Positions 1-39,311 of a stretch of 41,805 nt of DNA are shown piece after piece; position 1 is the stretch's first letter; each line of letters starts with the position of its first letter. A model generated the notes under the pieces. The model had not been told where the DNA came from and did not search any database. It worked only from the letters and a program-made list of their open reading frames with translations. The position numbers and the translations under genes were made by a program. The stretch is from Minisyncoccia bacterium. Its GTDB lineage: Bacteria > Patescibacteriota > Minisyncoccia > UBA6257 > 2-01-FULL-56-20. The stretch is from positions 1 to 41,805 of the forward strand of contig JBEKBG010000007.1 of NCBI GenBank assembly GCA_050015515.1, read 5' to 3'.

Positions 1-298
1 GCGGGGAGAATCCTGCGGCGATCTCAAGAATTTGGTTCGCCTTATTTTTCTCAAGAAGTCGGTTTGTCAGCTTGTATCGCGCCTCGAACATGGGCGTAAT
101 TTCCGGGAGCCGCAGACTCTCCAGGACAGCAAGCTCCTCAGCAGACCGCGTCTGTTGCACAATCTCTTGAAGTTCGTCAAAGATTTCCGTTGAATACGGG
201 ATGTCTGATAACGTCCTGCGGTACGCGACACCCCAGGCCGTTGGGCTTATCTTCTCATGTCCTCCCTTTTTTTTCGGCTTGCGTTCCAAAGAATCCAT
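1..298 (-). CDS. Class I SAM-dependent methyltransferase (leucine carboxyl methyltransferase-like), 5' part; runs off window edge
   Basis: Manual translation from ATG at 298: MDSLERKPKKKGGHEKISPTAWGVAYRRTLSDIPYS...FEARYKLTNRLLEKNKANQILEIAAGFSP, where ILEIAAGFSP is a SAM-binding motif I; TATAAT lies 9 nt upstream. Confidence 0.7.
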   Translation of the reverse strand, partial: MDSLERKPKKKGGHEKISPTAWGVAYRRTLSDIPYSTEIFDELQEIVQQTRSAEELAVLESLRLPEITPMFEARYKLTNRLLEKNKANQILEIAAGFSP

Positions 299-487
299 AG
301 CTTCATGATTATAACTGAGATTCATAAGCCGCGCATCTCCTGCGCCGCTAGCCTATCACGACGCCCACTGGAACAATAATGAGTTATTTTTCTTCAACAT
401 TTCTCGACCATTAAATCCGGTACCACAAATTTGCTGGCGTTTTCTCCGAAAAAGGTTCTGACGTCATTGACTAGCCCGCTCATAACA

Positions 488-775
488 TCAATCTGTTGAT
501 GTCGTCGATATTGTCGACGGCACGATGATCACCATGGTCTCGCCCGGTTTCTTGTAGTTGAACCGCGCGCGGAGTTCTTTCTCCAAATTTTCCGGGTTGG
601 AGAGATATTGCGTCTCTTCTTGCAGGCTCGTCTCCTGCGCCTGGGCCTTCGTGAGGTTCTGCTGCACGTCCGCCAGCTCGCTGCCAAGCGACCATTCTTG
701 CCGCACAAACGAGAACACCTGCACGCCGACGATAATGATGAACAAAGAGAGTATGATAATGGAGGCGATTTTCAT
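488..775 (-). CDS. Septum formation initiator (FtsB/DivIC family)
   Basis: N-terminal TM helix, coiled coil, then YLSNPENLEKELRARFNYKKPGE, matching the DivIC/FtsB C-terminal pattern. Confidence 0.75.
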   Translation of the reverse strand: MKIASIIILSLFIIIVGVQVFSFVRQEWSLGSELADVQQNLTKAQAQETSLQEETQYLSNPENLEKELRARFNYKKPGETMVIIVPSTISTTSTD

Positions 776-787
776 GGCTTTAGTGTA

Positions 788-2587
788 CTACTTTTTCAAG
801 ATCTCCCTAAAGACCTCCGGCGAGATATCCACGCGGGCGCCGGCCTGAAGGCGCTCCTTGCCTTTCTCCTGCTTCTTCCATAGCTTCATCTTGCGCGTGC
901 GATCGCCGCCGTTCTTGCCAAAGTTGCCGAGCTCTTTCTTCATCGCGCTGATCGTCTCGCGGGCGATGATGCGACCCTGTGACTTTGCCTGAAGCGCCTG
1001 GCTGAACTGTTCCTTCGGTAAAAGTTCCTTAAGCCGCTCCACCGTCTGGCGTCCCTCGCGCTCCAGATCTTTTTTCGGCACGATACGCGTGAGCGCGGGC
1101 ACGATCTCGTTCACCACCACGATCTCCAATTTCTCCACCTCCGACTCGCGCTCGCCCGCCAGCTCGTACGTAAACGACGCGTATCCCTGCGACACCGATT
1201 TCATCCGATCATCAAAGTCGCGGATCAGTTCACGGAGCGGCATGATCGCCGTGATCAAAAGGTTCTCACCGATGTTCTTTACCTCATTGATCTCCATATC
1301 GAACACCGTCTGCATGTTAAGCACGGCGCTCAGATATTGCTGGGGCGTGAGAATCTCCAAATTGACGAGTGGCTCCCACACTTTTTCCGGATGCTCAGGA
1401 AAATCCTGCGGCTGCTTGATCACAAAAATTTGGCCTTTGTCCTGCACGCGATACGCGATGGACGGGAAGCTGGTAAGGAATTGCAGATTATATTCCCGCT
1501 CAAGTCGGCTGGAGATGATCTCAAAGTGAAGCTGGCCGAGGAAACCAACTTTCAATCCGCGGCCGAGGGCCTCGTTTGAATCCGGTTCGAAGCTGAGCGC
1601 GGCATCATTCAAACGCAACTTCTCAAATCCGCGCTTGAGGTCGTCGAACTTGGTATCGCCGTCGGGATAGAACGAGATGAACACCACCGGCGCGGGCTCG
1701 CGGTAGCCGGGAAGCGCCAACTCACTTTTACGCTCAGCGCCGAGCATTGTCGAATCGCGGTTCGCCAAAATGGTGTCGCCGATATGAACGAGCTCCGGTT
1801 CTTTGAGGCCGGTCGCGATGTAGCCGATCTCGCCGGTTTTTAATTTGGCGGTCGCCTTCATCTCCGGTGAAAAATATCCGACCTCTTTGGCTTTAAAGCC
1901 GTCGGCGCTTGCCACGAGGTGCATATCTTCCGTGCCGAACTCGCCGCCGAACACGCGCACGTTTGCGATGATACCTTTGTGATCGTCGTACATCGAGTCG
2001 AAAATGAGCGCTTTGGAAATATTGTCTTTGGAGTTTTTCGGCGGCGGCACGAATTTTACGACCGCCTCGAGCAGTTCCTTCACGCCCGCGCCCGTCTTTG
2101 CCGAAACGCGAAACACATCATCCGGCGAGACACCGAGCAAATCCGCGGTCGCCTCCACCACTTTTTCGATATGCGGAAGCGCGAGATCGATCTTGTTCAC
2201 TGCCGGGATGATGCGCAGTCCCGCTTTCTGTGCGCCGCGCAAATTGGAAAGCGTCTGCGCCTGAATGCCCTTCGTGCCGTCCACGAGCAAAACGCCGCCC
2301 TCGACGGCGTTCAGTGCACGCGACACCTCATACGCAAAATCCGAGTGGCCCGGCGTGTCGATCAAGTTCATCACATACTTTTTGCCGTCGCTCGCGATGT
2401 ATTCCATGCGCACCGGCGCCATCTTGATCGTGATTCCCCGCTCGCGCTCGAGCGGCATCCGGTCCAAGTACTGCGCCTGCATCGAGCGCATCGGCACCGT
2501 GCCCGTCATCTCCAAAAGACGATCGGCAAGCGTGGATTTTCCACTATCAATATGGGCGATGATGACGAAATTGCGGATGTGTTCCAT
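788..2587 (-). CDS. lepA: Elongation factor 4 (LepA)
   Basis: IRNFVIIAHIDSGKSTLADR, ERERGITIK, DTPGH, NKID and C-terminal GGDRTRKMKL motifs; 599 aa. Confidence 0.97.
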   Translation of the reverse strand: MEHIRNFVIIAHIDSGKSTLADRLLEMTGTVPMRSMQAQYLDRMPLERERGITIKMAPVRMEYIASDGKKYVMNLIDTPGHSDFAYEVSRALNAVEGGVLLVDGTKGIQAQTLSNLRGAQKAGLRIIPAVNKIDLALPHIEKVVEATADLLGVSPDDVFRVSAKTGAGVKELLEAVVKFVPPPKNSKDNISKALIFDSMYDDHKGIIANVRVFGGEFGTEDMHLVASADGFKAKEVGYFSPEMKATAKLKTGEIGYIATGLKEPELVHIGDTILANRDSTMLGAERKSELALPGYREPAPVVFISFYPDGDTKFDDLKRGFEKLRLNDAALSFEPDSNEALGRGLKVGFLGQLHFEIISSRLEREYNLQFLTSFPSIAYRVQDKGQIFVIKQPQDFPEHPEKVWEPLVNLEILTPQQYLSAVLNMQTVFDMEINEVKNIGENLLITAIMPLRELIRDFDDRMKSVSQGYASFTYELAGERESEVEKLEIVVVNEIVPALTRIVPKKDLEREGRQTVERLKELLPKEQFSQALQAKSQGRIIARETISAMKKELGNFGKNGGDRTRKMKLWKKQEKGKERLQAGARVDISPEVFREILKK

Positions 2588-2632
2588 TGCCGCAAGTGTA
2601 CCAAAAAATGAGGCACTCTCACAAGGAAGGAG

Positions 2633-2875
2633 CTATGGCTTGACGATTTTCTCGAGCGCTAAAATACGCTTATTGTGATCCTTGAGCTCGATATTAATAT
2701 CGCCGATAGCGGACATGATCCGTGTTTCCATTCGAAACAGATCCTGCTTGGTTGCCATTTTTTCTTCCCATGCAGCAAATTTTCCGTCTATTGCATCAAA
2801 GCGTTTTTCGTTGGCGCGCGACTCTTTTTCTATCATCACTGCGAGGTCATCTATCGTGGTTGTTTTTTTATTCAT
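2633..2875 (-). CDS. Small coiled-coil hypothetical protein
   Basis: ORF from MNKKTTTIDDLAVMI with ATKQDL motif and heptad pattern. Confidence 0.65.
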   Translation of the reverse strand: MNKKTTTIDDLAVMIEKESRANEKRFDAIDGKFAAWEEKMATKQDLFRMETRIMSAIGDINIELKDHNKRILALEKIVKP

Positions 2876-2965
2876 ACACAAAAGCATACGCTTTTATATT
2901 GCCAAGTCAAAAGGTTTTTAATGATTTTTTAATCACTGAAGATTGACCATTTACTTTATGACGCC

Positions 2966-3535
2966 TTAGAAATCCAACAAAATTCTTATTTCTTTTTCCG
3001 CCGCAATAGGATCGCTGAATGCTTTAAAGTCATATTTTTTAGCTTCCTCCGCATAACGAGGTCGTTCCCAACCCCAAAAGGCCTCAGCTTCTTTTTTTAT
3101 CAATTCATCAGTGCGACCCCAGCGGGGCTCCTGTTTATTACGTTCCAAAATCGTATCAAATGATTCTCCAAGTACGACAATGCCTTGAAATTTTAAATCT
3201 CGCTTAGCCAAGTGCGGTAATATATTAACCCCCTCGAATATCGTGGGTTTTCCTAAACGCTGAATCTCTTCTATTTTTTTAAAAATTGCCGGCCATAGTG
3301 CTTCCGACTGGTTTTTTAAATCCTCCCATTCTTGATTAGGGGACGTCATCTGCCAATAATTTTCTTCATTTTTATTCCAAAAGAAATCTACCCATTTTTT
3401 TAATTCTGGATCACTCCGAAATTCATCTCGCCAATCATCAATTTTAACGAAGGAGATACCGAGAGATTCGGAAACCTTCTTTGCTAGATAACTCTTTCCT
3501 GCTGTAGGTATCCCTGTAATAAATACATATTTCAT
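2966..3535 (-). CDS. P-loop NTPase / small-molecule kinase (adenylate/gluconate kinase-like fold), AT-rich gene
   Basis: N-terminal Walker A ITGIPTAGKS, IFEG strand, lid-like ERNKQEPRW. Confidence 0.75.
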   Translation of the reverse strand: MKYVFITGIPTAGKSYLAKKVSESLGISFVKIDDWRDEFRSDPELKKWVDFFWNKNEENYWQMTSPNQEWEDLKNQSEALWPAIFKKIEEIQRLGKPTIFEGVNILPHLAKRDLKFQGIVVLGESFDTILERNKQEPRWGRTDELIKKEAEAFWGWERPRYAEEAKKYDFKAFSDPIAAEKEIRILLDF

Positions 3536-3591
3536 ATAAATAATTATAACTGATAATTTTATAAAGGCTGGATTTGAAAAAAACCTATCAC

Positions 3592-3743
3592 CTCTCGCGC
3601 CAGCATCGTATTCTGCGAGGGGCTCCGCAGGCGGTTCGGCATGGTCCGTTCGTTCTGACGAACGGCGAACCGCCGAGGACTGAGCGAGCCCATCGCTGGG
3701 TGGGCGAAGCGTACCCTCGCAGAATACGATGCTGGCGCGAGAG
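3592..3743. repeat. Fold-back element: perfect 30-bp inverted arms around a 92-nt branched core (GGGTAC family)
   Basis: 3592-3621 is the exact reverse complement of 3714-3743; interior has GCTC/GAGC, ccgttcgt/acgaacgg and gcccatc/ggtgggc stems. Confidence 0.9.
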
Positions 3744-3746
3744 CCT

Positions 3747-5804
3747 CTATATCTTCTGCAACGTCAGCGTGAACATCAGTCGCCCGGGCGTGCTGGTGGA
3801 ATTGTACGTAAAGCTCGCAAGACCGTTCTCGGCGAACGCATAGCCGAGCGGCGCATCCACTTCGATGTGATAATTCCCCGTCGCGCCGCTCGGGCGTTCG
3901 AAAATAAATTGATATTGCACACCGGCGGCGGGCAGCGCGAATAAGTTGCGCGAGTAATCGAACGAGAGCGTGGATGACTGGCCCGCATACGTTCGCGACC
4001 ACACGGCAAACACCTGCTTACCCGATTCCGTATGCGTCGTTACTTTTGGATAACTGAAATTTTGCTGCGTCGCTGAAGCGATGGCGAGCACGTTCGGGTC
4101 GGTGCTATAGCCGTCGCGCGCATAGTTGATCGGCGCAGGGACGCTCTTCGCGATTCCGCCACTCTGGTTCTGCAACGTGCTCCCGTTCGGCACAAAGATC
4201 TGCATATAATCCTGGTTGGTCGTTTGATACCACCAGTATGGACTTTGGTTGCCGTTATGCGTGCGCGTGATGGTGAGGTTTGTGGTCAGCGTGCCGTCGC
4301 TCCCGATCGCAGCGTCGTAGCTAATATCCTGCACCATATACAGCTCCGACTTATCGCTGTTGATATCCGCGTTCACGATCGCAAGATAATCACCGTTGAA
4401 GTTTTGCGGGAGCTGATAGACATCGCCCGTCGCGCCGTACGCGTTGGCGAACGTCTCAAACGCAGGGTTGGTCGCATAAAACATTAAATCTTTATTGGAA
4501 ATCCAGTTGAGTGCGAGCCCAAGTATCTGTTGTTTCTGCGCATCCGTGGAAGACGCAAGTTGTTGGATGATCGCGGGGTAGAGCTGCGACAACACCGCCT
4601 TCGGATACGTAGCATTGCCTCCACCGGACTTTGCCTGGCCTGCCTGCACGATCTTTTGGATCTGCGTCACGAGATTGTCGGAAGTGAATGTCGTTGATGC
4701 GACGTTAATCGGTCCCGTCACCGAGAGCAGATCGCTCATCACCTGCGGCGTCACCGCGACAACGCCATCGAATGTGGTGGATGGCGTGGCCGCTTCAAAC
4801 ATACTGATCGTCTCCGACGCGGACGTCGGGAAGTCAAAGAACCAGTTCGCATCAGCGGGGCGGAACGCGATCTCTTCCAACTGCAGCGGCACGGGCGGTT
4901 CGATCTTTTGTTTGAACGCCGTGTCCACATCCGCAACATCATGAAACGCGATGTTAGAGATCTTCCCGTTGTTGATAGAGACATCCGCATAGCTTCCCAA
5001 AAATCCCCCGCCCGGACGCATCTCCGACGGATTTTGGAAAAGCACAAGGAGGTGGTGTGTGGTTGACGCATCGGAGAGCCATGGCACAAACGCATCCAAA
5101 AAAGTTTCCGCGCCCTTTATCTGCGTGGTCAGTGCCAGATAGCTTTCCCCGCTGATCGGCGACGCGGTGCCCAATGACGATGCCGCGCCGGAGAGCGCGC
5201 CGCTGTCCGCGTCGATCGCGGTAAGCGTGTCGCGCACACTCGCAAGGTCTGCAGCGAGCGTGCTGCTCCCATTCCCGGAAACAAATCCGAACGCATCATT
5301 TTCAATGCTCGTTATATTGTTTGAAAGTGTTGTTAGTTGATTGGAGAGATCGGTGAATGACCGGATCGTGGCGCTGCTTCCCGCGAAAAAAGAGACAAGA
5401 GATCCCCAAGGCCCATCCGCCGCCGACGAGGCGTTCAATGATGAGAATTCTTGCGCGGCGGACTGTGGATTCAAGTTCTGCAGATCCTGCACACCCGCTT
5501 GCAACGTACCGATCCGTGATGAGATCGTCGCCGCAATCTCGCGCTTCACCAAATAATATGAAACCGCAAAGCCGCCAATAAAAAGCACGATCAGCCCGGC
5601 AGCGGCCCACTTGATGCCGCGCGGGAGCGGTTGCCGACGATCCTCGCCACGAAACCGCCAATAATTGCTGTTCGTCACCGGAATGTCGCGCAAGTGGTCG
5701 GTGTTTTCCTTCACCTCGCGCTGGGTGATCTTTACTAGCTCGTCCGCACGGATATCATCCGCCGCATGCTCCGACTGCAGTTTTTTCTCCTCGCGATCAG
5801 CCAT
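3747..5804 (-). CDS. DUF4012 domain-containing membrane-anchored protein
   Basis: Single N-terminal TM; LLVLFQNPSEMRPGGGFLGSY, DANWFFDFPTSA and DGVVAVTP motifs typical of DUF4012. Confidence 0.85.
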   Translation of the reverse strand: MADREEKKLQSEHAADDIRADELVKITQREVKENTDHLRDIPVTNSNYWRFRGEDRRQPLPRGIKWAAAGLIVLFIGGFAVSYYLVKREIAATISSRIGTLQAGVQDLQNLNPQSAAQEFSSLNASSAADGPWGSLVSFFAGSSATIRSFTDLSNQLTTLSNNITSIENDAFGFVSGNGSSTLAADLASVRDTLTAIDADSGALSGAASSLGTASPISGESYLALTTQIKGAETFLDAFVPWLSDASTTHHLLVLFQNPSEMRPGGGFLGSYADVSINNGKISNIAFHDVADVDTAFKQKIEPPVPLQLEEIAFRPADANWFFDFPTSASETISMFEAATPSTTFDGVVAVTPQVMSDLLSVTGPINVASTTFTSDNLVTQIQKIVQAGQAKSGGGNATYPKAVLSQLYPAIIQQLASSTDAQKQQILGLALNWISNKDLMFYATNPAFETFANAYGATGDVYQLPQNFNGDYLAIVNADINSDKSELYMVQDISYDAAIGSDGTLTTNLTITRTHNGNQSPYWWYQTTNQDYMQIFVPNGSTLQNQSGGIAKSVPAPINYARDGYSTDPNVLAIASATQQNFSYPKVTTHTESGKQVFAVWSRTYAGQSSTLSFDYSRNLFALPAAGVQYQFIFERPSGATGNYHIEVDAPLGYAFAENGLASFTYNSTSTPGRLMFTLTLQKI

Positions 5805-5846
5805 AGGGATATTTTAGCACGATATTTTTGTTATACTAAAAATACT

Positions 5847-7841
5847 ATGATAAAAAAACTCACTTCCTGGTTCACTGCTACCGCCCTCGTACTGATCTGC
5901 ATCACTTCATTCGGCCTGATGTTCTACGCGTCGCGCACTGATTCCGCGATCATGGACGAGCTCGCACACATCCCCGCCGGCTACGGTTACGTGAGCCAAC
6001 TCGATTACCGGTTGAACCCCGAGCATCCCCCGCTCGTGAAAGCGCTCGCGATGCTGCCGGTGCTGATATTCGTGCAGCCAACATTCCCCACAAACAACGC
6101 GGCGTGGACAACGGAAGTGAACGGGCAGTGGGATATGGGCACCGCGTTCCTCTATAATTCGGGCAACGACGCGAATGCGATCATCCAGGTGGGGCGCGTG
6201 ATGCCGATCCTGCTCACCATCCTCACCATCATTCTCGTCTACTTTCTCGCGCGGCGGTTTGTGGGAAAACTTTGGGCGCTTCTGCCGACATTCCTCTTTG
6301 CGCTCGACCCGACCGTGCTCGGGCACGGGCATTATGTGACGACCGACCTCGGCGCTGCGTTCGGCGTCATTCTCGCCATATTTTTCTTTTTGAGATATAT
6401 CAATGATCCGTCCACGAAAAATTTGTGGTACGCCGGGCTCGCGTTCGGCGTGGCGCAGGTCGCCAAATTCTCAACGCCCTTACTCGTCCCGCTCTTTATC
6501 TTTCTCTTTATCGTTTTATGGCTGCGCGACCTCATCGCGCAATGGAGCACGACCGATGCGTCACGCCGCGCAAAAACGTTTTTTGCAAAGCTGTGCCGCT
6601 CCGCGTGGAAGTGCGCGCTCATCTTTGTGATCGGCTACGCGTTCATCGTCTATCCGATCTATTTCTTATTCACCGCCGGCTATCCGGTCCAAAGGCAGGT
6701 TTCTGACACGACCGCGATCCTCACTTCGTTTGCTACTGGCCCCACACCAGCCGACCAACTATGCCACGGCATGCGATGCATCGCCGACGCGGATATCTGG
6801 ATGGCAGGACATCGCCTTACGCAACCGATCGCGGAGTACTCGCTCGGCATCCTAATGGTGTTGCAACGCGCGGACGGTGGCAACACGATCTACTTCCTCG
6901 GCCACGTAGCGCAAAGCGGCGGCTGGATCTACTTCCCCGCGCTCTTCCTTTTGAAAGAACCGATCCCGACGCTCATCATCGTCTTCCTCGCACTCGCGCT
7001 CGCCGCGTGGTGGACCATTAAAAAAACATTAAAACGCAGATCCACCGGCGGGTCGACGATTGGACGGCGGATACTCGATTACCTCACGCTCAATTTCGGC
7101 GAATTCTCGCTCGCGTCGTTCATCGTCCTCTATTGGGGGTACAGCATGCACAGTCCGTTGAACATCGGCATCCGGCATATCCTACCCACCCTCCCGCTCA
7201 TCTTCATCCTTGCCGCCGTCGTGTGGAAAAAATGGATCACAAAATTAAATTTCGGTGCGATGGCGTCCTCAAGCTCTTTCGCCGCGCTCGCACGATCATT
7301 CCTTTCTCCCGTCATCAAATATATTTTTCTCATCTTGCTCCTCGCATGGTTGCTTCTCGAGACATTCTTCGCCGCGCCGTACTTCCTCTCGTACTTCAAT
7401 GAGTTCGGCGGTGGCGTCCAGGGCGGCTATCACTTCGTGACCGATTCCAATTACGACTGGGGACAGGACTTACTCCGGCTGCAATCGTGGGTGAACGCCA
7501 ACCCGCAGGTGGATAAGATCGCAGTGGATTATTTCGGCGGCGGCGATCCGCACTATTATCTCGGCAATAAAGAAGTGAATTGGTCATCAGCGCAAGGCAA
7601 TCCCGCCGACCAGGGTATTCACTGGCTTGCCGTTTCCGTAAACACGCTCGAGCTCGCCACCCAGCCGCTCGCGCCCGGCCAGACGCGCAACGCGTCGGAC
7701 ACCTACTCGTGGCTCACCGCGCTGCGCGCTTCCAGTTCGGGCGCCGACGCGACCGGTACCTGGCTCGGCGGCGATATGGGCAACGTCCCCACCCCGGACG
7801 CGCGCGCAGGAACATCGATCTTCATCTATCATCTGCAATAA
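5847..7841 (+). CDS. GT-C fold membrane glycosyltransferase (PMT/ArnT, GT39/83-like)
   Basis: DE motif (IMDELAH), NPEHPPLVK, many TM segments, DSNYDWGQD; start re-called at ATG 5847 after TGnTATACT. Confidence 0.85.
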   Translation: MIKKLTSWFTATALVLICITSFGLMFYASRTDSAIMDELAHIPAGYGYVSQLDYRLNPEHPPLVKALAMLPVLIFVQPTFPTNNAAWTTEVNGQWDMGTAFLYNSGNDANAIIQVGRVMPILLTILTIILVYFLARRFVGKLWALLPTFLFALDPTVLGHGHYVTTDLGAAFGVILAIFFFLRYINDPSTKNLWYAGLAFGVAQVAKFSTPLLVPLFIFLFIVLWLRDLIAQWSTTDASRRAKTFFAKLCRSAWKCALIFVIGYAFIVYPIYFLFTAGYPVQRQVSDTTAILTSFATGPTPADQLCHGMRCIADADIWMAGHRLTQPIAEYSLGILMVLQRADGGNTIYFLGHVAQSGGWIYFPALFLLKEPIPTLIIVFLALALAAWWTIKKTLKRRSTGGSTIGRRILDYLTLNFGEFSLASFIVLYWGYSMHSPLNIGIRHILPTLPLIFILAAVVWKKWITKLNFGAMASSSSFAALARSFLSPVIKYIFLILLLAWLLLETFFAAPYFLSYFNEFGGGVQGGYHFVTDSNYDWGQDLLRLQSWVNANPQVDKIAVDYFGGGDPHYYLGNKEVNWSSAQGNPADQGIHWLAVSVNTLELATQPLAPGQTRNASDTYSWLTALRASSSGADATGTWLGGDMGNVPTPDARAGTSIFIYHLQ

Positions 7842-7856
7842 GTTCCCCTACGACAT

Positions 7857-7888
7857 AGGCGGCACCCTCACGTGTCGCCTTTCTTTTT
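7857..7888 (+). terminator. Intrinsic terminator of the glycosyltransferase gene
   Basis: aggcggcac-loop-gtgtcgcct followed by ttcttttt. Confidence 0.7.
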
Positions 7889-7901
7889 ATCTTTTATCAC
7901 G

Positions 7902-8026
7902 TAGCAAAAACACAAAGGGATATTATTTTGAGGGCTCTCGGAGACGACGAAGGTCGCCGAGAGGGAGCGGCCGCGCAGCAGCGCGGAACGCGTACCTCAA
8001 GATAATATCCCTTTGTGTTTTTGCTA
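7902..8026. repeat. Fold-back element: 32-bp inverted arms (1 mismatch) around a branched core (GGGTAC family)
   Basis: 7902-7933 vs 7995-8026; right arm includes the ftsQ stop codon; core gctc...gagc, ccgcgc/gcgcgg, GCGTA. Confidence 0.9.
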
Positions 8027-8869
8027 TTTATAGAACAATCGGTTCTCCGTCCGGCAATCAACGTACTGCAGTTTATCAAAATTAGATTGCAACATCAGCT
8101 TCTGGATGACCGGCAAATATTCGTCCGCCGGGAATTGCAGACTGAAGTAGATCGTCGGCCCGTTCGCCGTTTGCACATCCACTTCCTGGAGCGAGAGATC
8201 GTTCAGCTCAATGGCCTGCACGCTGAGGCCGCTCGCGTGCAAGACGTTCATGATGGAAATAAAATTCGGGAGGAACTCGTCCGACAGCACTTTTTGATTC
8301 AGCCCGCGCGGCGCTTGCGCACGATCATATACCGTGTAGACCAGATCGCCCTGCGTCTCCCCGGCCTTTTCAAAGATCGTGCCGGTGTTATCGAACCAGT
8401 AGCAGGGTGCGTTCGTATCCGTCGCAGTGGTCGAAGCCGCGCTTACACCCGGCGATGCGGAAAAACACCAGATGCCGAACGGTGAACGTTCGGTGACGGT
8501 GATAGTGATGGTATGCGAAAAAAAATCTTTGGAGATATTCGCGTTCGCGAGCTGCGGGATCATCTGAAGTTCGCCCTGCGGGATGCTCGCCGGCCACAGC
8601 AGCATATTATCGAACGTGAGTGCGGCGCGGAGAATGTCATGGCTGGGAAACGCGCTTGCCTCCGCGAGCGCGATCACATCCGTGTTTGAGATCGCACTAT
8701 TCCCCTGCACCACCACGTGGTCCACACGGAATACCGGCGAACGAAGCACTAGCCATTGCGCGGCAAAAAATATCCCGTAAAAAATTACCAACCCGAGCGC
8801 GGTTAAAAGATACGCGCGGCGGCGCTTGCGCTTTCTCTTATGGTCGGAAATATACGGCGCGATCTGCAT
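8024..8869 (-). CDS. ftsQ: Cell division protein FtsQ/DivIB
   Basis: Basic N-terminus, one TM, POTRA-like SPVFRVDHVVVQGN...ITITVTER, C-terminal YVDCRTENRLFYK. Confidence 0.8.
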   Translation of the reverse strand: MQIAPYISDHKRKRKRRRAYLLTALGLVIFYGIFFAAQWLVLRSPVFRVDHVVVQGNSAISNTDVIALAEASAFPSHDILRAALTFDNMLLWPASIPQGELQMIPQLANANISKDFFSHTITITVTERSPFGIWCFSASPGVSAASTTATDTNAPCYWFDNTGTIFEKAGETQGDLVYTVYDRAQAPRGLNQKVLSDEFLPNFISIMNVLHASGLSVQAIELNDLSLQEVDVQTANGPTIYFSLQFPADEYLPVIQKLMLQSNFDKLQYVDCRTENRLFYK

Positions 8870-8886
8870 GAATCAATGATACCACT

Positions 8887-8966: not shown

Positions 8967-8973
8967 CCGCATT

Positions 8974-10808: not shown

Positions 10809-11033
10809 GGCGTGCCTCCTAGGAAACTAGCTAGATTAAATCATAAATAGAGGAAGAAGTCGAGGGCGTCAAGTAGAGCGTGTTTGAATGGATTTGTACT
10901 GCCGATGTCGAATAAATGTTTTTGGAAAAAATAAACACTCTTGCGACCACAGGAATCCGGACAACGCATTGAATTCATCCTCTCACCGCATCCCCTTCAA
11001 AAATTCTGCTATTTGGCATAGAATGACTATATT

Positions 11034-15436: not shown

Positions 15437-15509
15437 GGTATCGTGCGGTTGCTTTCCTATGATAGTAGCGGAAAATCCTGCATTCTTCAACTATGATATA
15501 CTACATAAA

Positions 15510-18648: not shown

Positions 18649-18687
18649 TGGGTTGTATTGTAGCCGAGCCGGCCGGAAAAGTCCAGT

Positions 18688-28542: not shown

Positions 28543-28579
28543 GGATTCATTATAGATGATGTGGCGGACGTTGTCAGGA

Positions 28580-29515: not shown

Positions 29516-29548
<33 letters not shown>

Positions 29549-31166: not shown

Positions 31167-31180
31167 ACCTTAGAACGATT

Positions 31181-31922
31181 CTTTCACGTTATCACCCGCT
31201 CGTTTTTTAATTTAAGCGGGATCCTCATGGTCGCCCATGAGATCGGACTATATCATCTCTAAAATGTTTTAGAGTCTGGCGTATAGTCTCTGAGGATTCC
31301 TTGATAGTCTATTTCACGTCGTTCCAGTTATATTTACGCCTTCTTCCCCTGCCCTCATTTAAATTTTCTCTGATAGCGACAATTTCTTGAAGTCCTTTTG
31401 GATCAAGATGCTTCCCTTGCTCCATTAAAAATGCAATTTGTCTAAACAGAGAAAAGTTTTTCTGTTTTGATAAGGAAAAGAAAGAAAACTTTTCAAAAAA
31501 CGGTATGACGCGATCAATGATCGAACGATAATCGCCAACAACGAAGTAATGCACTCCGTCCTTTCGATATTGCAATCGTCCGCAACCTAAATGACTTTTT
31601 AATAATTCCAAATTGGCGATGTCGCGCTGGGCCACGTTGAAGGTCATTTGCACCTGCCATCCGAGGCGGTGCCCATTCCCTTTTCGAAGAGAGACGTTAA
31701 AACTTCCCTCTCCATCTGTGAAACCAGAAAGATACCAGCCAACGTTGTCTGGAATTTTCTCAAGCCATTCACGGTTATACCAAGGCCTTTCCTGCTGATT
31801 GTCTGCACCGATCATATTGTCACTATACTCAATCAAGATTAAATCTTTATTAAATATAGTAATGTCGGATACCCAGAGTTTCCAGCATTTGGCCAGATTT
31901 TATAACTACAATCGTTATGTTT
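31181..31922 (-). mobile_element. Group I intron at 23S position 1917 carrying a homing endonuclease, 742 nt
   Basis: Interrupts AACUAU|AAUCG; core aatcagcagg, ctcagagactata, gatatagtcc; terminal G. Confidence 0.92.
31309..31836 (-). CDS. Single-motif LAGLIDADG homing endonuclease
   Basis: WYLSGFTDGEGSF, F.VAQ, LGCG, IPFFEK..K..NF..F motifs; lies inside the L1917 intron. Confidence 0.95.
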   Translation of the reverse strand: MIEYSDNMIGADNQQERPWYNREWLEKIPDNVGWYLSGFTDGEGSFNVSLRKGNGHRLGWQVQMTFNVAQRDIANLELLKSHLGCGRLQYRKDGVHYFVVGDYRSIIDRVIPFFEKFSFFSLSKQKNFSLFRQIAFLMEQGKHLDPKGLQEIVAIRENLNEGRGRRRKYNWNDVK

Positions 31923-33341
31923 ATAGTTATCGCTGACATTGACGAGGGCTTGACTCAGTGAGCAGTACAGATTGCTCCATACCACCCCCAAGCTTGACCT
32001 TCTCGCATCGGTCAGGTGTCACCCCCTATACATCCTGTTGCCAGTTAGCAGGGAGCTGTGTTTTTGGTAAACAGTCGCCAGAGATTCTTTAGCTGCGGCC
32101 CTACTTGCCCCGGCTTACGCCGGACTTCATAGGGCAGGCCTTATTGCTAACTTACGGCCGCTATTTTGCCTAGTTCCTTAACGATGAATCACTCGTTCCC
32201 CTTGGGCTACTCGCCCTATCCACCAGTGTCGGTTTACGGTACGGAGACCCTCGAAAGGCACTTCACAGATGTCGGCCAAGTAAATTCTTAACCTTCTCTC
32301 GGTACACGCTTGCGCTCAGTACAAAGAATGCCAAACCAATAAGGCACATCTGCTTATCTCCTTTGTCCTCTGGTTATGATCGTACGGTCGGGCTGGAATA
32401 TTAACCAGCTTCCCATCGACTGCCCCTTTCGGGATCGCCTTAGGACCGCCTCACCCGTGGTTGATTGCCAGTGCCACGGAAACCTTGGATTTTCGGGGTT
32501 CCAATTTCTCATTGGGATTGTGGTTACTCATTCCAACATTTTCTCTTCCGGCCGCTCCAGTCGCCCTCGCGGGTCGACCTTCTCTGCAGGCCGAAATGCT
32601 CTCCTACCACTTACACCTCCCGAAGGAAGTATAAATTCGTATCTTCGGTACCATGCTTAGCCCCGGTACATTTTCGGCGCCGCGACCCGTCGAATAGTGA
32701 GTTGTTACACACTCTTTAAAGGATGGCTACCTCTAAGCCAACCTCCTATCTGTCTATGGGTTACGACTACCTTTCACACTTAGCATGGATTTAGGGACCT
32801 TAGATGACGATCTGGGCTCTTCCCCTCGCGACCACGGAGCTTAGCCCCCGCAGTCTAACTAGCAAGATCTTGACTCTCGGTATTCGGAGTTTGATTGATC
32901 GTTCGGTCTTTCGACCTGTAACGATCATCCAGTGCTCTACCCCCAAGAGGAACTCTTGCCGCCAGTCCTAAAACTGTTTCGGAGAGAACCAGCTATTACG
33001 TTATTCGATTAGCTTTTCACTCCTTACCTCAGCTCATCCGAAGATTTTGAACAATCAACCGGTTCGGGCCTCCCTCCCGATTTCTCGGGAGTTCACCCTG
33101 GCCAAGGCAAGCTCATAACGCTTCGGGTCTATCTTCTGCTGCATATATGTCGCCCTATTCAGACTCGCTTTCGCTATGCCTACACGCTATGCGCGCTTAG
33201 ACTGCAACAAAAAATAAGTCGTTGGATCATTCTTCAATAGGCACACTGTTACACTCGAACTCCCTTGCGGGAGATCGTTCGTGCTTCAGTTCCTTGTAGG
33301 CAAACGGTTTCAGGTTCTATTTCAACGGCCTCACCGGCCTG

Positions 33342-33378
<37 letters not shown>

Positions 33379-33951
33379 ATCTAGAAAAGTATTTAGCCTT
33401 ACCTGATAGTACAGGTATATTCCTCCGGAACTGTTTTACTCCGAAGTACTCGAGTTAAAAAACTAAGGAGACCAATTGTTTTCGTCTAGGGGGCTATCAC
33501 CCGCTCTGGCGCCGCTTTCCAGACGGCTTTGACTAACAAAAGATTTTTTTACTCCTCCACCTCTTAATGAGTAACGAAACACACACTTGCGTATGTGCTA
33601 CGTTACTTATTAAAAGAGCGTCTTTAGACTATACCCTAAGGTCGCAATATAAATCACAACCTTAGTTTGGGCTGTTCCCTGTTCTCTCGCCGATACTAGG
33701 GGAATAACTGATTTGTTCTTTTTTCCTCCGCTTACTGGAATGTTTTACTTCAGCGGGTACGCGAATCGACTTGCGTCGAAACAATTGAGGTTTACTCAAC
33801 TAGGTTTCCCCATTCGGAAATCCCCGGATCATAGATTGCTACGCATCTCCCCGAGGCATATCGTTGCTACGCCACGTCCTTCATCGCCTTTTCTAGTCTA
33901 GGCATCCACCGTTCGCCCTTATTTGCCAACCATCCCAATGCTGACTTGCTC

Positions 33952-36286: not shown

Positions 36287-37744
36287 TTATTTTACGTGGT
36301 GCTTCTTCTTTATATCCTCGTCCATCTCCCCTTCCGCTTCGCGCTTCTTCTGCTGCGCGCTTGCGAACAATCCTTGCAGCTCCGCATCGCTCAGCTTGTT
36401 CAATGCCTTCGCGCGCTTCTCCAGATATTTTTTCTCGTTCTTTTCTGGATCGTCGATCACTTCTTCCATGAGCGCATTCAGGATCCACCCCACGCGGCGC
36501 GATTGCGGCAGATCAAGCAGCGGCATGAGGTCATCGCCGCGGAGCGCAAGCATCTTTGGCGAAAGCGGATCGCGCTTGACCTTCTCTATCATAAAGAGCA
36601 AATGGCGCAGGCGGTACGGTACCGCTTTCGCGACGCCGGAGCCGATGCGATCGGCTTCGCGCACTTTGAGCAAGTCGTCGATATTCTCCGGCCCGACACG
36701 CACCACGAGGCGCCGCACGCCCGCAGGCGAAATCACACCGGTTTCATAGTTGAACATATGCATGCGCACAAGGTGCGCCACCTGCTCCGTAAACTCGCGC
36801 GAGAACCGCAAGCGGTCGAGCATCTTCACCGCCATCCGCGCGCCCACATATTCGTGCTGATAAAACGTCGCGTCCGCACCGTCGCCGCCCTTCACCTTCG
36901 GCTTGCCGACGTCGTGAAGTAGCGCCGCCATACGCACCACGAGCGAATAATTTTCGCGCGCGGCGTAATCGAGCGCGCGAACGTTGTGTTCAAAGACGGT
37001 GTACACATGATGCTTGTTTTGTGCAACGCCAATTCCCTCGCGCAGCTCCGGCAAAACATAGCGAAGCAGATCGAGCTCTTCCAATAAGATGATCCCCTTT
37101 GCCGCGTTCGGCGTCATCAAAATTTTCACGAGCTCGTCGCGTACGCGCTCTTTGGCGATCGCCTCCAGGCCACCCGCCAGTTTGACGATCGCGCGGCGCG
37201 TATTCATCTCTATCTCAAAATCCAACTCCACGGAAAAACGCACTGCACGCATCAGACGAAGCGCATCTTCCGAAAACCGCTCTTCCGGCGCGCCGACGGT
37301 GCGCAGCATGCGATCTTTAATATCGCGCGAGCCACCGAACGGGTCGATCACATCGCCCTTCATATCCATCGCAAGCGCGTTCACCGTAAAGTCACGGCGC
37401 GCAAGATCGTCCTCTACATGAGAGGCAAACTTGATCTCGTCCGGATGCCGCTGGTCGGTATACTTGCCCTCGATGCGATACGTAGTGATCTCTATTATTT
37501 TCAAACGCGGATCTTCCGATTCGGTTTTGATCCCCACAGTACCAAAGTTATTTTCATAGACGCTCTCCGGAAAAAGCTTTTGTACCTCCGCCGGCTTCGC
37601 GTCCGTGGCAACGTCCCAATCCTTCGGCTCGCGCGCGAGCAGCATATCCCGCACACAGCCGCCCACGAGGTACGCCTCAAACCCCGCTTCGGCAAGCGTT
37701 CTGGATACCAATACCACCTCTTCGGGGACCCCAGTCTTCTTCAT
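36287..37744 (-). CDS. cca: CCA tRNA nucleotidyltransferase / poly(A) polymerase family with HD domain
   Basis: VGGCVRD, DWDVAT, RRDFTVNA, EDALRLMRAVRF, LLHDVGKP; start set at the second Met, 7 nt after TACAAT. Confidence 0.9.
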   Translation of the reverse strand: MKKTGVPEEVVLVSRTLAEAGFEAYLVGGCVRDMLLAREPKDWDVATDAKPAEVQKLFPESVYENNFGTVGIKTESEDPRLKIIEITTYRIEGKYTDQRHPDEIKFASHVEDDLARRDFTVNALAMDMKGDVIDPFGGSRDIKDRMLRTVGAPEERFSEDALRLMRAVRFSVELDFEIEMNTRRAIVKLAGGLEAIAKERVRDELVKILMTPNAAKGIILLEELDLLRYVLPELREGIGVAQNKHHVYTVFEHNVRALDYAARENYSLVVRMAALLHDVGKPKVKGGDGADATFYQHEYVGARMAVKMLDRLRFSREFTEQVAHLVRMHMFNYETGVISPAGVRRLVVRVGPENIDDLLKVREADRIGSGVAKAVPYRLRHLLFMIEKVKRDPLSPKMLALRGDDLMPLLDLPQSRRVGWILNALMEEVIDDPEKNEKKYLEKRAKALNKLSDAELQGLFASAQQKKREAEGEMDEDIKKKHHVK

Positions 37745-37759
37745 TACCTTCATTGTACC

Positions 37760-38890
37760 TTACCGCACCACCGCGCCGAACTCCTTCGCCGTCTCCTCCT
37801 CTATTTTCTTGTGCAACACATCCACTTCCTCGTTCGTGAGCGTGCGGTCGCTTGAACGGTACGTGATCCGGTATGCATAGCTCTTTTTGTCCGCGCCGAA
37901 CTTTTCGGCATTCTCATACTCGTCGATAAGCTCCACCTGCTCCACGACCTCGCCCGCGATGTCGCGCACGAGGTCAAAATAATTGTTCGGCGCGAACGTC
38001 TTCGGAACAATGAACGAGATGTCGCGCAACACCGGCGGATACTTGCTGACTTCCACAAACTTGGTTCCCATGTGTAACTGCTTCTTTACACGCTCGTCGT
38101 TGGACCACAGCAGACGGATGTCCGGCAACTCCATGCTGATGATGGCAAGCCGCTCCAGGCCGAAGCCGAACGCCCATGCGTTGTATCCCATGACGCCGAA
38201 TTTTTTAAACACGCTTTGCTTCGTCATACCACCGCCCATGATCTCGATCCACTTGCCATTCAACTCCACCTCTATCTGCAACGACGGATCGGTGTACGGG
38301 AACGTGTCATCCAAAAAGCGGAATTTCACATCCGCGCCGAAGAGCGCACGCACGATTTCGGCGAGCGCGTTGCGCAGATCGTCGATCGTGAGCGGATCCG
38401 TGTCCGCAGGCGTCATATACCACCCGCCGAACTGGTGGAAAGTGTTCATGTGATTCCGGTCTATCTCATCCTTGCGATACACCTTGCCGTAGCAAACGAC
38501 GCCTAGCTTCTCGTGGCGCGCGATGCGCTCCTTTACCTCCGGCAGTTGCGTGTAGTAATACCACATCACCGTGTCGTGCGTGCGCAAAATATTCTTGTCG
38601 TCAGCATAATATGTGTCGGATTTGCTCCGCGCCGGATGATCCGCGGCAAAATCGAAGAGGTCAAAGTTGATAGAGGCGGGCACGATTTCCGGGATGATGA
38701 TGTTGTCGAAGCCTTTCAAAACCGGCGTATTGCATGCGCTTTGCACGATCTCATAGAGCGGACTGCCCGGCGTGCGGGAAAGGTCCGGCATGGCGAGATA
38801 GCGCTTGATGCGCGCCGCCTCCGCATCCGTGCGCGCGTCGACCGTCGTCAAAATCTTTTTCTGCTCATCGAGGGAGATCTGGTATTCCAT
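37760..38890 (-). CDS. pheS: Monomeric (mitochondrial-type) phenylalanine--tRNA ligase: alpha catalytic domain plus FDX anticodon-binding domain
   Basis: HPARSKSDTYY, LRTH, GKVYRKDEID..H...FHQ, FPYTDPS, AFGFGLERL, then SKYPPVLRDISF...YRITYRSSDRTLTNEEV. Confidence 0.9.
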   Translation of the reverse strand: MEYQISLDEQKKILTTVDARTDAEAARIKRYLAMPDLSRTPGSPLYEIVQSACNTPVLKGFDNIIIPEIVPASINFDLFDFAADHPARSKSDTYYADDKNILRTHDTVMWYYYTQLPEVKERIARHEKLGVVCYGKVYRKDEIDRNHMNTFHQFGGWYMTPADTDPLTIDDLRNALAEIVRALFGADVKFRFLDDTFPYTDPSLQIEVELNGKWIEIMGGGMTKQSVFKKFGVMGYNAWAFGFGLERLAIISMELPDIRLLWSNDERVKKQLHMGTKFVEVSKYPPVLRDISFIVPKTFAPNNYFDLVRDIAGEVVEQVELIDEYENAEKFGADKKSYAYRITYRSSDRTLTNEEVDVLHKKIEEETAKEFGAVVR

Positions 38891-38917
38891 AGTACGATTG
38901 ATATTATAGTGGGGTTA

Positions 38918-39289
38918 TCAAGAAGGAGTAAACCCTCTCCGTCCAAGACCGTTCCGGTCGAGGAGGGCGCGCGGCACTTTCTGTGCCGCCAACTTGGTGA
39001 ATATCACCCGCGTTTCCGTTACCGCATCGCCTTCGGGAAGGGCAAGCACCGCATCGCGATATGCCTCGAACTCTCCCATCTCTATCGTTCCGTCTTTTAT
39101 TTTTTTCCAGATATCCCAGTCCTCCTCCGTCAGATGCGATGCATCAAATTGGGAGTTCCGCTCATTCGTCCCCGGAACGAAAAAATTGGCGTTGACCGGC
39201 TCCCGGTTCGCAAAATCCGCCATCTCCGTGCGGAACTGGTCTATCGAATATCCACCTTCGACCCCCTTTTTTTCCAACCCTGTTTCCAT
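38918..39289 (-). CDS. Hypothetical protein (123 aa)
   Basis: ORF from METGLEKK with TATGAT 6 nt upstream; protein-like composition. Confidence 0.6.
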   Translation of the reverse strand: METGLEKKGVEGGYSIDQFRTEMADFANREPVNANFFVPGTNERNSQFDASHLTEEDWDIWKKIKDGTIEMGEFEAYRDAVLALPEGDAVTETRVIFTKLAAQKVPRALLDRNGLGRRGFTPS

Positions 39290-39311
39290 GGTCATATCAT
39301 ACCTTATTCTT

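What the first reader, a model, noticed from the sequence alone, without database searches (positions are those of the whole stretch)
298..39301. Core genes appear leaderless: a -10 hexamer sits 6-10 nt before the start codon, with no SD
Seen: lepA TGgTACACT-7-ATG, ftsB-like TACACT-6, DUF4012 TGcTAAAAT-6, ftsQ TGgTATCAT-6, serS TATGAT-6, rplK TACTAT-7, cmk TGaTATACT-7, rpsF TACAAT-8, the 27802 gene TATAAT-6, the 2966 gene TATAAT-7, cca TACAAT-7 and the 38918 gene TATGAT-6. Established: transcription starts about 6-8 nt after the -10 box. Inference: these mRNAs begin at or very near the AUG and most genes have their own promoter, which would explain the broken-up operons.
Basis: partly seen in the sequence, partly recalled or inferred. 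Interest (0 to 1): 0.7.

Follow-up and report, generated by a model that had tools for sequence, protein, structure and literature searches.

The report
Leaderless gene starts in a Parcubacterium
In this ultra-small uncultured bacterium about a third of the genes have a promoter placed so that the mRNA should begin at the start codon, and its ribosomal RNA lacks the usual mRNA-docking sequence; the mechanism is known from other bacteria.

Summary
All 12 cited -10 hexamers lie 6-8 nt before an ATG. Genome-wide (774 kb, own crude gene call), TANNNT lies 5-9 nt before an ATG in 296 of 709 genes, against 96-165 at control spacings. A weight matrix gives 232 of 708 against 40-78. The aligned boxes carry a TRTGn extension and a -35 TTG at 17 bp, so they are sigma-70 promoters.

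Core genes have no Shine-Dalgarno (SD) sites. The 16S tail reads GGAUCAAUUAAACU instead of the anti-SD (aSD), and this tail is conserved in relatives.

The organism is a Parcubacteria/Paceibacteria genome assembled from a metagenome. Loss of the aSD in this lineage is published (PMC9297842). I found no paper describing the leaderless layout there.

'Most genes have their own promoter' is overstated. About a third of genes do, roughly 40-50% of likely operon-first genes. The 25-gene ribosomal-protein operon is intact, without internal promoters. A minority of orphan ORFs carry strong SD sites.

No RNA data exist, so transcription starts are inferred. This scan already found the same layout in other Parcubacteria genomes. 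Verdict: new member of a known kind.

The parts
782..787 (-). -10 hexamer TACACT, 6 nt before the ATG (775) of the DivIC/FtsB-like gene 488-775
2595..2600 (-). -10 hexamer TACACT with TGg extension, 7 nt before the ATG (2587) of lepA 788-2587
   Evidence: The box keeps its position in 17 of 18 orthologue loci of >=80% identity.
3543..3548 (-). -10 hexamer TATAAT, 7 nt before the ATG (3535) of the P-loop kinase-like gene 2966-3535
5811..5816 (-). -10 hexamer TAAAAT with TGc extension, 6 nt before the ATG (5804) of the DUF4012 gene 3747-5804
   Evidence: matrix 8.6 bits
5832..5837 (+). -10 hexamer TATACT with TGt extension, 9 nt before ATG 5847 of the PMT-family glycosyltransferase gene (to 7841). 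It is divergent from the DUF4012 promoter.
   Evidence: 8.9 bits
8876..8881 (-). -10 hexamer TATCAT with TGg extension, 6 nt before the ATG (8869) of the FtsQ-like gene 8024-8869
   Evidence: 8.9 bits
10282..10287 (-). -10 hexamer TATGAT, 6 nt before the ATG (10275) of serS 8974-10275; -35 TTGGAA at 18 bp
11019..11024 (+). -10 hexamer TAGAAT, 9 nt before the ATG (11034) of thrS 11034-12821; -35 TTCAAA at 17 bp
15497..15502 (+). -10 hexamer TATACT with TGa extension, 7 nt before ATG 15510 of cmk (to 16052)
   Evidence: 10.1 bits
16582..16587 (-). -10 hexamer TACTAT, 7 nt before the ATG (16574) of rplK 16149-16574
18657..18662 (-). -10 hexamer TACAAT, 8 nt before the ATG (18648) of rpsF 18193-18648; -35 TGGACT at 17 bp
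28549..28554 (-). -10 hexamer TATAAT, 6 nt before the ATG (28542) of the unnamed gene 27802-28542
37752..37757 (-). -10 hexamer TACAAT, 7 nt before ATG 37744 of cca (36287-37744)
39296..39301 (-). -10 hexamer TATGAT, 6 nt before ATG 39289 of the unnamed gene 38918-39289

Best explanation
This is a Parcubacteria/Paceibacteria (CPR) genome in which translation does not use Shine-Dalgarno pairing. The 16S rRNA ends in GGAUCAAUUAAACU instead of GGAUCACCUCCUUA, and core genes have no SD.

About a third of all genes, roughly 40-50% of likely operon-first genes, have a sigma-70-type promoter (TTG.. -35, 17 bp, TRTGn-TAtaaT) whose -10 hexamer ends 6-9 nt, most often 6 nt, before an ATG. RNA polymerase should therefore start on the A of the ATG or 1-3 nt before it. 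That gives leaderless mRNAs, which ribosomes bind through the 5'-terminal AUG and initiator tRNA.

The other genes are of two sorts. Some lie in tight operons, with gaps of 1-16 nt or overlaps, behind A-rich, G-poor spacers. These are presumably translated by re-initiation, or by entry at unstructured RNA helped by protein bS1. The rest have ordinary longer leaders without SD.

Shown: motif, spacing, promoter features, absence of SD and of the anti-SD, conservation in relatives. Inferred: the transcription start sites and the way ribosomes are recruited.
For: (1) Position. TANNNT peaks at -12 before first starts: 16% against 2-3% elsewhere, and 0-1% before 3296 internal ATGs. Of 545 first ATGs, 20% have spacer 6, 6% spacer 7 and 7% spacer 8.

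(2) Counts against controls. 296 of 709 genes against 96-165 at control spacings; the strict TATAAT-like motif gives 202 against 36-58. The matrix at >=6 bits gives 232 of 708 against 40-78.

(3) Promoter identity. In the 296 aligned boxes the commonest hexamer is TATAAT (68). TG lies 1 nt upstream in 96 of 296, with T at -5 and R at -4. T is enriched at -23/-22, which is a -35 TTG at 17 bp. A match of >=4 of 6 to TTGACA is seen in 75 of 296, against 23-39 at shifted positions. A generic promoter scan of window 1-20000 finds 22 sites against 14.1 +/- 3.1 in shuffles, and recovers the serS, thrS and rpsF boxes.

(4) Start codon. The enrichment is at ATG, not clearly at GTG (n=69) or TTG (n=95). 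That fits the AUG dependence of leaderless initiation.

(5) The starts are right. Pfam profiles begin at residues 1-3 of LepA, SerS and SSB.

(6) Conservation with turnover. 40 of 75 lepA orthologue loci, and 17 of 18 with >=80% identity, have a box 5-9 nt before the ATG. The hexamer varies (TACACT, TAAAAT, TAGAAT, TATGAT, TATACT, TATGCT) while the spacing stays at 7-8. ORFs around lepA in relatives show the same peak at spacers 6-8 in four of five identity bins.

(7) No SD system. SD words reach at most 3% at any position. Duplex energy with the organism's own tail or with the canonical tail is flat across starts. The 16S tail lacks CCUCC. The same tail is seen in 12 of 12 16S genes of the genus, in the sister genus and in one other family; none of the 21 16S ends read in the order has CCTCC.

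(8) Context. A box (matrix >=6 bits) is found in 41% of divergently placed genes and in 30-39% of same-strand genes with a gap of 0 nt or more, but in only 6% (background level) of genes that overlap the previous gene.
Against: There is no transcript evidence. No RNA run holding this DNA is listed, so start sites are inferred from promoter geometry only.

My gene calls and starts are home-made: ORFs of >=80 aa, a codon log-odds score, and the start chosen among ATGs in the first 40 codons. Control spacings correct for this choice, but absolute fractions are rough, from 26-37% up to an EM upper estimate of 58%.

With spacers of 7-9 nt (53% of the boxes) the mRNA may carry a 1-3 nt leader.

Genes may also be read from upstream promoters as internal cistrons.

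A minority of mostly orphan ORFs have strong, well-placed SD sites: 85 against 40-41 in controls. In one case the SD is kept in a 54%-identical homologue. An SD-blind ribosome does not explain this.

The link between loss of the anti-SD and the promoter-at-start word is weak across the class. The median ratio is 2.05 against 1.63; at family level p=0.16 for the ratio and 0.02 for the excess per Mb.
Confidence: 0.85

Rival explanations
1. The TAnnnT element is not a promoter. It is an A/U-rich, non-SD ribosome-binding or enhancer element within a longer leader, of the GeneMarkS-2 'group B' type seen in Bacteroidota, read for example by ribosomal protein bS1.
For: The region upstream of genes without a box is A-rich and G-poor. 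A bS1 homologue of about 370 aa is present in 36 of 40 relatives. The 16S has no anti-SD, so some other recognition is needed.
Against: The element has the TRTGn extension and a -35 TTG at the canonical 17 bp, and specific T1, A2 and T6 positions. It is at background level (6%) before genes that overlap the previous gene, where a ribosome-binding site would be needed most. A group B motif occurs before internal genes too (PMC6028130, passages read).
Confidence: 0.07
2. The boxes are ordinary promoters, but the true start codons lie further downstream, so the mRNAs have normal leaders. This would be an artefact of start calling.
For: My starts are chosen partly by the box itself.
Against: The peak is already there for the unselected first ATG of each ORF. 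Pfam profiles start at residues 1-3 of LepA, SerS and SSB. The ATG and the N-terminal codons are conserved in lepA orthologues. No SD or other signal marks an alternative downstream start.
Confidence: 0.05
3. It is chance or composition: A+T-rich intergenic DNA gives TAnnnT often enough.
For: Control spacings give 96-165 hits in 709 genes, so the loose motif is common.
Against: There is a sharp single-position peak, a 3- to 6-fold excess over control spacings with the strict motif or the matrix, and the word TANAATN{6,8}ATG occurs 198 times against 37 for its reverse.
Confidence: 0.01

Closest known systems
Bacterial genomes rich in leaderless genes (GeneMarkS-2 'group C': Actinobacteria such as Mycobacterium tuberculosis, and Deinococcus-Thermus; PMC6028130, passages read)
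   Same: A Pribnow box 6-8 nt before the start of operon-first genes. A comparable share of operons: 25-50% there, about 40-50% of likely operon-first genes here.
   Different: Those genomes keep the anti-SD, and their leadered and internal genes use SD sites. Here the 16S has no anti-SD and core genes have no SD at all. The lineage is CPR/Parcubacteria, for which I found no such description.
The Parcubacteria subgroup without a 16S anti-SD that also lacks uL1 (Tsurumaki et al. 2022, PMC9297842, passages read); 'SD-scarce organisms lacking CCUCC', including Campbellbacteria and Wolfebacteria (PMC10783764, passages read)
   Same: Same lineage and same traits: no CCUCC tail and no uL1 found.
   Different: The word 'leaderless' does not occur in PMC9297842. 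PMC10783764 mentions leaderless mRNA only in general terms. Neither, in the passages I read, reports promoters placed at the start codons.
SD-independent initiation in Bacteroidota (GeneMarkS-2 'group B', PMC6028130)
   Same: Genes without SD, and A-rich upstream regions.
   Different: There the motif precedes internal genes too and is not a promoter. Here the positioned element has promoter anatomy and is missing before overlapping internal genes.
Leaderless mRNAs of many archaea (group D), and of mammalian mitochondria, whose small rRNA has no anti-SD (the mitochondrial point is recalled, not from a call)
   Same: Initiation on a 5'-terminal AUG without SD pairing.
   Different: Those use a different transcription machinery, with an archaeal TATA box at about -26. 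Here it is a bacterial sigma-70 promoter.

Membership tests
Leaderless-rich bacterial genome (GeneMarkS-2 group C) | A -10 (Pribnow) motif localised about 6-8 nt before start codons | tested here: met
   Peak at spacer 6. The EM spacer distribution is 6: 43%, 7: 26%, 8: 17%, 9: 10%, 5: 4%.
Leaderless-rich bacterial genome (GeneMarkS-2 group C) | A sizeable share of operon-first genes is affected (25-50% in group C) | tested here: met
   Matrix >=6 bits: 69 of 170 divergently placed genes and 66 of 178 genes with a gap over 100 nt, against about 6.5% at control spacings.
Leaderless-rich bacterial genome (GeneMarkS-2 group C) | The remaining genes use an SD-type ribosome-binding site | tested here: not met
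   SD words reach at most 3% at any position; duplex energy is flat; no anti-SD. Only a small class of mostly orphan ORFs has SD sites.
Leaderless mRNA (definition) | The primary 5' end lies at or within a few nt of the start codon | not testable with these tools
   No RNA run holding this DNA is listed.
Leaderless mRNA (definition) | Preference for AUG as start codon | tested here: met
   Spacer-6 box before 20% of 545 first ATGs, against 4% of 69 GTG and 1% of 95 TTG.
Sigma-70 extended -10 promoter | A TGn (TRTGn) extension upstream of the hexamer, and a -35 TTGACA-like element at 16-18 bp | tested here: met
   TG in 96 of 296; a -35 match of >=4 of 6 in 75 of 296, against 23-39 at shifted positions.
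Anti-SD-less, uL1-less Parcubacteria subgroup (PMC9297842) | The 16S 3' tail lacks CCUCC | tested here: met
   The tail is GGATCAATTAAACT. It is the same in 12 of 12 16S genes of the genus. None of the 21 16S ends read in the order has CCTCC.
Anti-SD-less, uL1-less Parcubacteria subgroup (PMC9297842) | No ribosomal protein uL1 | tested here: met
   PF00687 was not found in the 98%-complete genome, while it rings in all 14 control genomes. rplK stands without rplA.
Anti-SD-less, uL1-less Parcubacteria subgroup (PMC9297842) | Placement in Parcubacteria | tested here: met
   The closest LepA loci come from records titled Parcubacteria, Paceibacterota, Paceibacteria, Minisyncoccia or Liptonbacteria. 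No tree was built.

The most novel reading that the evidence does not exclude
This lineage may run a fully SD-independent translation system. Leaderless initiation would be the main entry route for independently transcribed core genes. The replacement 16S tail (AAUUAAACU, conserved across several families while the DNA just after it diverges) would have a function of its own. A separate set of accessory orphan genes keeps strong, conserved SD sites although no anti-SD exists to read them. That would imply an unknown second reader of GGAGG, or expression somewhere other than on the cell's own ribosomes.
Probability: 0.15. Interest if true: 0.75.

Novelty: new member of a known kind. Interest (0 to 1): 0.45.

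Why it matters
Gene finders that expect an SD site will misplace starts in these genomes. Three of the 12 cited genes start at an internal ATG of the longest ORF.

The lineage combines a ribosome without an anti-SD with a share of leaderless genes as high as in Deinococcus or mycobacteria. That makes it a natural test case for how bacteria initiate translation with no SD pairing at all, and for whether loss of the anti-SD and a leaderless layout evolve together. In my sample of the class the link is only weak.

It also gives simple, testable promoter predictions for an uncultured group in which no promoters have been mapped.

Tried and rejected
1. RNA evidence. The look-up of sequencing runs listed 24 DNA holders (peat, permafrost and soil metagenomes) and no RNA holder. 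Read laying was therefore not used, because contigs of DNA runs cannot show a 5' end.

2. An alternative SD complementary to the new 16S tail. Mean duplex energy of the tail with 10-mers from -35 to +15 shows no dip before starts. It lies within the range of 5 shuffled tails, and the canonical tail gives only about 0.4 kcal/mol at -15.

3. A second upstream motif in genes without a box. The enriched words (TAATCA, TTAATC, TAATTA; AACTAA, ACTAAT, AAACTA) turned out, by eye in the 80 listed contexts, to be mostly degenerate -10 boxes (nATAAT, TTTAAT) at the right spacing, or the TAA stop of the previous gene. I checked the stop codon for rplB only. They show no positional peak of their own. I rejected their resemblance to the 16S tail in the same sense as coincidence of A/T-rich words.

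4. 'bS1 is missing', which would have fitted leaderless translation. G000 holds only single S1 domains, one in a 723-aa frame and one in a 417-aa frame. But 36 of 40 relatives have a bS1-like gene of about 370 aa and 130-188 bits, which in several of them lies about 17 kb from a homologue of the 723-aa single-S1-domain frame. In G000 that frame sits at the end of contig C17. An assembly gap is the likely reason, so I make no claim of loss.

5. Listing all 16S tails of the class with a 9-nt anchor. The anchor was too unspecific and the list was cut. I replaced it with a more specific pattern.

6. The Nanosynbacter TSS paper (PMID 35975994) is not held, so I could not see whether it reports leaderless transcripts in a Saccharibacterium.

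7. Literature. No paper linking 'leaderless' to Parcubacteria (0 hits), Patescibacteria (2 hits), candidate phyla radiation (5 hits), or Paceibacteria, Minisyncoccia, Nanosynbacter or TM7x makes this claim. I checked the relevant passages of four of them; the rest I judged from the search listings. Supplementary tables of GeneMarkS-2 (group assignments of about 5000 genomes) were not opened and may list CPR genomes.

Full report
WHAT THE WINDOW IS

The window is a whole 41.8-kb contig (C7) of a 774-kb, 23-contig genome of 52-53% G+C, rated 98% complete. The closest LepA-encoding loci in public genomes come from records titled Parcubacteria, Paceibacterota, Paceibacteria, Minisyncoccia or Liptonbacteria. 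So this is a CPR/Patescibacteria genome of the Parcubacteria group, assembled from a metagenome. I built no tree. The labels 'uncultured Candidatus Saccharibacteria' on some of those records look generic.

It adds thrS, miaA, gatB, ssb, yceG, ftsW, dut and a pheS of the single-chain type.

THE OBSERVATION

For cmk, cca and the 38918 gene, the ATG next to the box is an internal ATG of the longest ORF (codons 26, 4 and 30). For cmk this agrees with where the Pfam match begins. Further cases in the window are PMT (TGtTATACT-9-ATG 5847) and thrS (TAGAAT-9).

Window genes with no TANNNT 4-12 nt before a candidate start are miaA, rpoBC, yceG, ftsW, dut, the deoxyribosyltransferase-like gene and the MurD-N-like gene. 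miaA nevertheless scores 6.1 bits on the weight matrix at spacer 8.

IS IT MORE THAN CHANCE?

I called genes crudely: ORFs of >=80 aa, a codon log-odds score trained on 276 long ORFs, and greedy removal of overlaps. This gave 723 genes covering 83% of the genome.

- Before the first start codon of 709 genes, TANNNT begins at -12 in 16%, at -13 and -14 in 6% each, and at 2-3% elsewhere. Before 3296 internal in-frame ATGs it is 0-1% everywhere.
- By start codon: 20% of 545 first ATGs have the box at spacer 6, against 4% of 69 GTG and 1% of 95 TTG.
- Allowing any ATG in the first 40 codons, 296 of 709 genes have TANNNT at spacers 5-9. The same procedure at other spacer windows gives 132 (0-4), 165 (10-14), 113, 111, 96 and 107. 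With a motif within one mismatch of TATAAT the counts are 202 against 58, 36 and 39.
- A weight matrix learned by EM gives 232 of 708 at >=6 bits, against 78 (spacers 10-14) and 40-49 further out.

So 26-37% of genes carry a positioned box above background. The EM mixture estimate of 58% is an upper bound, because regions next to starts are A/T-rich anyway.

ARE THE BOXES PROMOTERS?

Aligned on the hexamer, the 296 sites show the following:
- TATAAT is the commonest hexamer (68).
- T is at 47% at -5, G at 38% at -4, T at 45% at -3 and G at 50% at -2. This is the TRTGn extended -10. TG is present in 96 of 296.
- T rises to 41-43% at -23/-22, which is a -35 TTG at a 17-bp spacing.
- A match of >=4 of 6 to TTGACA at 16-18 bp is seen in 75 of 296, against 23-39 at five shifted positions.

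The generic promoter scan of window 1-20000 finds 22 two-hexamer sites against 14.1 +/- 3.1 in shuffles, among them the serS, thrS and rpsF boxes.

The spacer distribution (6 nt 43%, 7 nt 26%, 8 nt 17%, 9 nt 10%, 5 nt 4%) puts the usual start point, the 7th base after the hexamer, on the A of the ATG in the largest class. That this is the usual start point is established knowledge of sigma-70 promoters, not a result of a call.

CONSERVATION

In 75 public loci with a full-length lepA orthologue, 40 have TANNNT 5-9 nt before the ATG. Among the 18 loci with >=80% identity, 17 do. The hexamer differs between clades (TACACT, TAAAAT, TAGAAT, TATGAT, TATACT, TATGCT) while the spacing stays at 7-8 nt and the extension TG is often kept.

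ORFs in these loci, pooled by LepA identity, show the peak at spacers 6-8 in four of five bins. The exception is the bin at 66-69% identity (8 loci), which shows SD words instead.

NO SD SYSTEM

GGAG, GAGG and AGGA never exceed 3% at any upstream position.

The single 16S gene (contig C2, unlinked to the 23S-5S in the window) ends ...GUGCGUGGAUCAAUUAAACU where E. coli has GGAUCACCUCCUUA. The E. coli tail is recalled. The same tail is found in all 12 16S genes recovered from the genus, in the sister genus and in one other family. Six further families of the order have variants (GGAACAAUUAAACU, GGAUUAAUUACAUU and others). None of the 21 16S ends that could be read has CCTCC; 3 of 24 loci had no anchor.

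Neither the organism's own tail nor the canonical tail shows a dip in pairing energy before starts.

uL1 was not found. This fits the published overlap between the anti-SD-less and the uL1-less Parcubacteria (PMC9297842, passages read). bS21 is present.

bS1 is not in this assembly, but 36 of 40 relatives have a bS1-like gene of about 370 aa. An assembly gap is the likely cause, so I claim no loss.

HOW FAR DOES 'EVERY GENE ITS OWN PROMOTER' GO?

The share of genes with a box, by context:

| Context | n | Matrix >=6 bits |
|---|---|---|
| Divergently placed | 170 | 41% |
| Same strand, gap >100 nt | 178 | 37% |
| Same strand, gap 41-100 nt | 72 | 39% |
| Same strand, gap 16-40 nt | 101 | 32% |
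| Same strand, gap 0-15 nt | 104 | 30% |
| Overlapping the previous gene | 70 | 6% (background) |

With TANNNT the figures are 54, 47, 49, 42, 32 and 10%.

But the S10-spc ribosomal-protein cluster on C2 (rplW to secY, about 25 genes, gaps mostly 1-16 nt) is intact. Its internal genes score only 0-5.6 bits and sit behind A-rich spacers.

Upstream regions of genes without a box are A-rich (36-45% A) and G-poor, with no positioned motif. My reading is that these genes are translated by re-initiation after the previous stop, or by entry at unstructured A-rich RNA. This is an inference.

ACROSS THE CLASS

In 300 sampled genomes of the class, 71 show the canonical helix-45-CACCTCC pattern. Another 68, plus G000, show an A/T after helix 45 instead. 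One genome has both and was left out. The rest gave neither, often for want of an assembled 16S. None of the 12 same-order genomes in this sample has the canonical pattern.

The word TANAATN{6,8}ATG occurs 198 times in G000, against 37 for its reverse. That ratio of 5.35 is the second highest among the 138 genomes with a 16S pattern that I compared, after a genome with very small counts.

The median ratio is 2.05 in the 68 non-canonical genomes and 1.63 in the 70 canonical ones. Taking family medians (35 against 23 families), p=0.16 for the ratio and p=0.02 for the excess per Mb. The layout is therefore widespread in the class and only loosely tied to loss of the anti-SD. The reversed word is an imperfect control, and no SD-using reference genome could be run for calibration.

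AGAINST 'NO SD'

A minority of ORFs have strong, well-placed SD sites. GGAGG or AGGAG ends 4-10 nt before the first ATG of 85 ORFs of >=40 aa, against 40 and 41 at two control distances.

The called genes among them have low codon scores, mostly 0.06-0.19 per codon against a genome median of 0.23. Of 22 that I picked for having the clearest SD, only one has a Pfam match above its cut-off, a PALP domain.

The window's example is ORF 39718-40101, with AAGGAGGatacATG. It has a homologue in only 1 of 40 relatives, at 54% identity, and that copy also has TAGGAGG 7 nt before its ATG. I cannot explain what reads these sites. Earlier reports of this scan describe the same class in other Parcubacteria.

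WHAT IS KNOWN

Leaderless-rich bacteria with a Pribnow box 6-8 nt before the start are well described: GeneMarkS-2 group C, with 25-50% of operons (PMC6028130, passages read).

Loss of the anti-SD in a Parcubacteria subgroup is published (PMC9297842). PMC10783764 lists Campbellbacteria and Wolfebacteria among organisms without CCUCC. PMC6107228 notes in general that organisms without an anti-SD lack SD sites, and names leaderless translation as one possible alternative.

My full-text searches found no paper that describes promoters at start codons in Parcubacteria or CPR. I checked passages. I did not open the GeneMarkS-2 supplementary tables.

This scan has already reported the same layout in several other Parcubacteria genomes. 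Those are unchecked notes, and my conclusions rest on my own calls.

VERDICT

It is a new member of a known kind. Its distinguishing feature is a leaderless layout combined with complete absence of the anti-SD. The unexplained residue is the set of SD-led orphan ORFs.

Noticed in passing
window 39718-40101 (+); also 10587-10808 (-); elsewhere in the genome, e.g. C1:8911-9291, C4:50252-50986, C19:7310-9798: Mostly orphan ORFs with strong, well-spaced SD sites (AAGGAGG, TAGGAGG) in a genome whose 16S has no anti-SD. The count is 85 first-ATG ORFs against 40-41 at control distances. Only 1 of 22 picked ORFs has a Pfam match above its cut-off. The window's ORF has one homologue among 40 relatives, at 54% identity, which also keeps the SD.
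   Followed up: partly
window 18688-25422 (-): rpoB and rpoC are fused into a single 2244-aa ORF. Pfam domains of beta are followed by those of beta' in one frame. The ORF has no positioned -10 box and follows a 192-nt upstream gap.
   Followed up: no
window 29403-33932 (-): The 23S rRNA gene spans 4530 nt against a 2925-position model, so it carries about 1.6 kb of insertions. One holds a LAGLIDADG endonuclease ORF (31309-31836). A second ORF (30789-31136) has no family. 5S follows at 29079-29190. The 16S is on another contig, unlinked.
   Followed up: partly
window 37760-38890 (-): PheRS appears as a single 376-aa chain (class II core plus the FDX-ACB anticodon-binding domain), an architecture I recall from the mitochondrial enzyme. 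Its -10 box (TATAAT) is 12 nt before the ATG, so it has a short leader. I did not search for a pheT.
   Followed up: no
G000 contig C2:76869-76917 and loci L002-L022: The replacement 16S tail CAAUUAAACU is invariant across the genus, the sister genus and one other family, while the DNA right after it diverges into different hairpins. This suggests the new tail is itself under selection. No complementary motif was found before genes.
   Followed up: partly
G000 contig C17 end (15778-16014) against relatives, e.g. G007:C1:604301-621973: A bS1-like gene of about 370 aa, present in 36 of 40 relatives, is absent from this assembly. In several relatives it lies about 17 kb from a homologue of the 723-aa single-S1-domain frame that here sits at a contig end. 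An assembly gap is the likely cause. In many relatives the match is crossed by one in-frame TAA; I did not look into this.
   Followed up: partly
window 5804-5847: The DUF4012 gene (-) and the PMT gene (+) start 42 nt apart. Their two extended -10 boxes lie face to face within that gap, at 5811-5816 and 5832-5837: a very compact divergent promoter pair.
   Followed up: no
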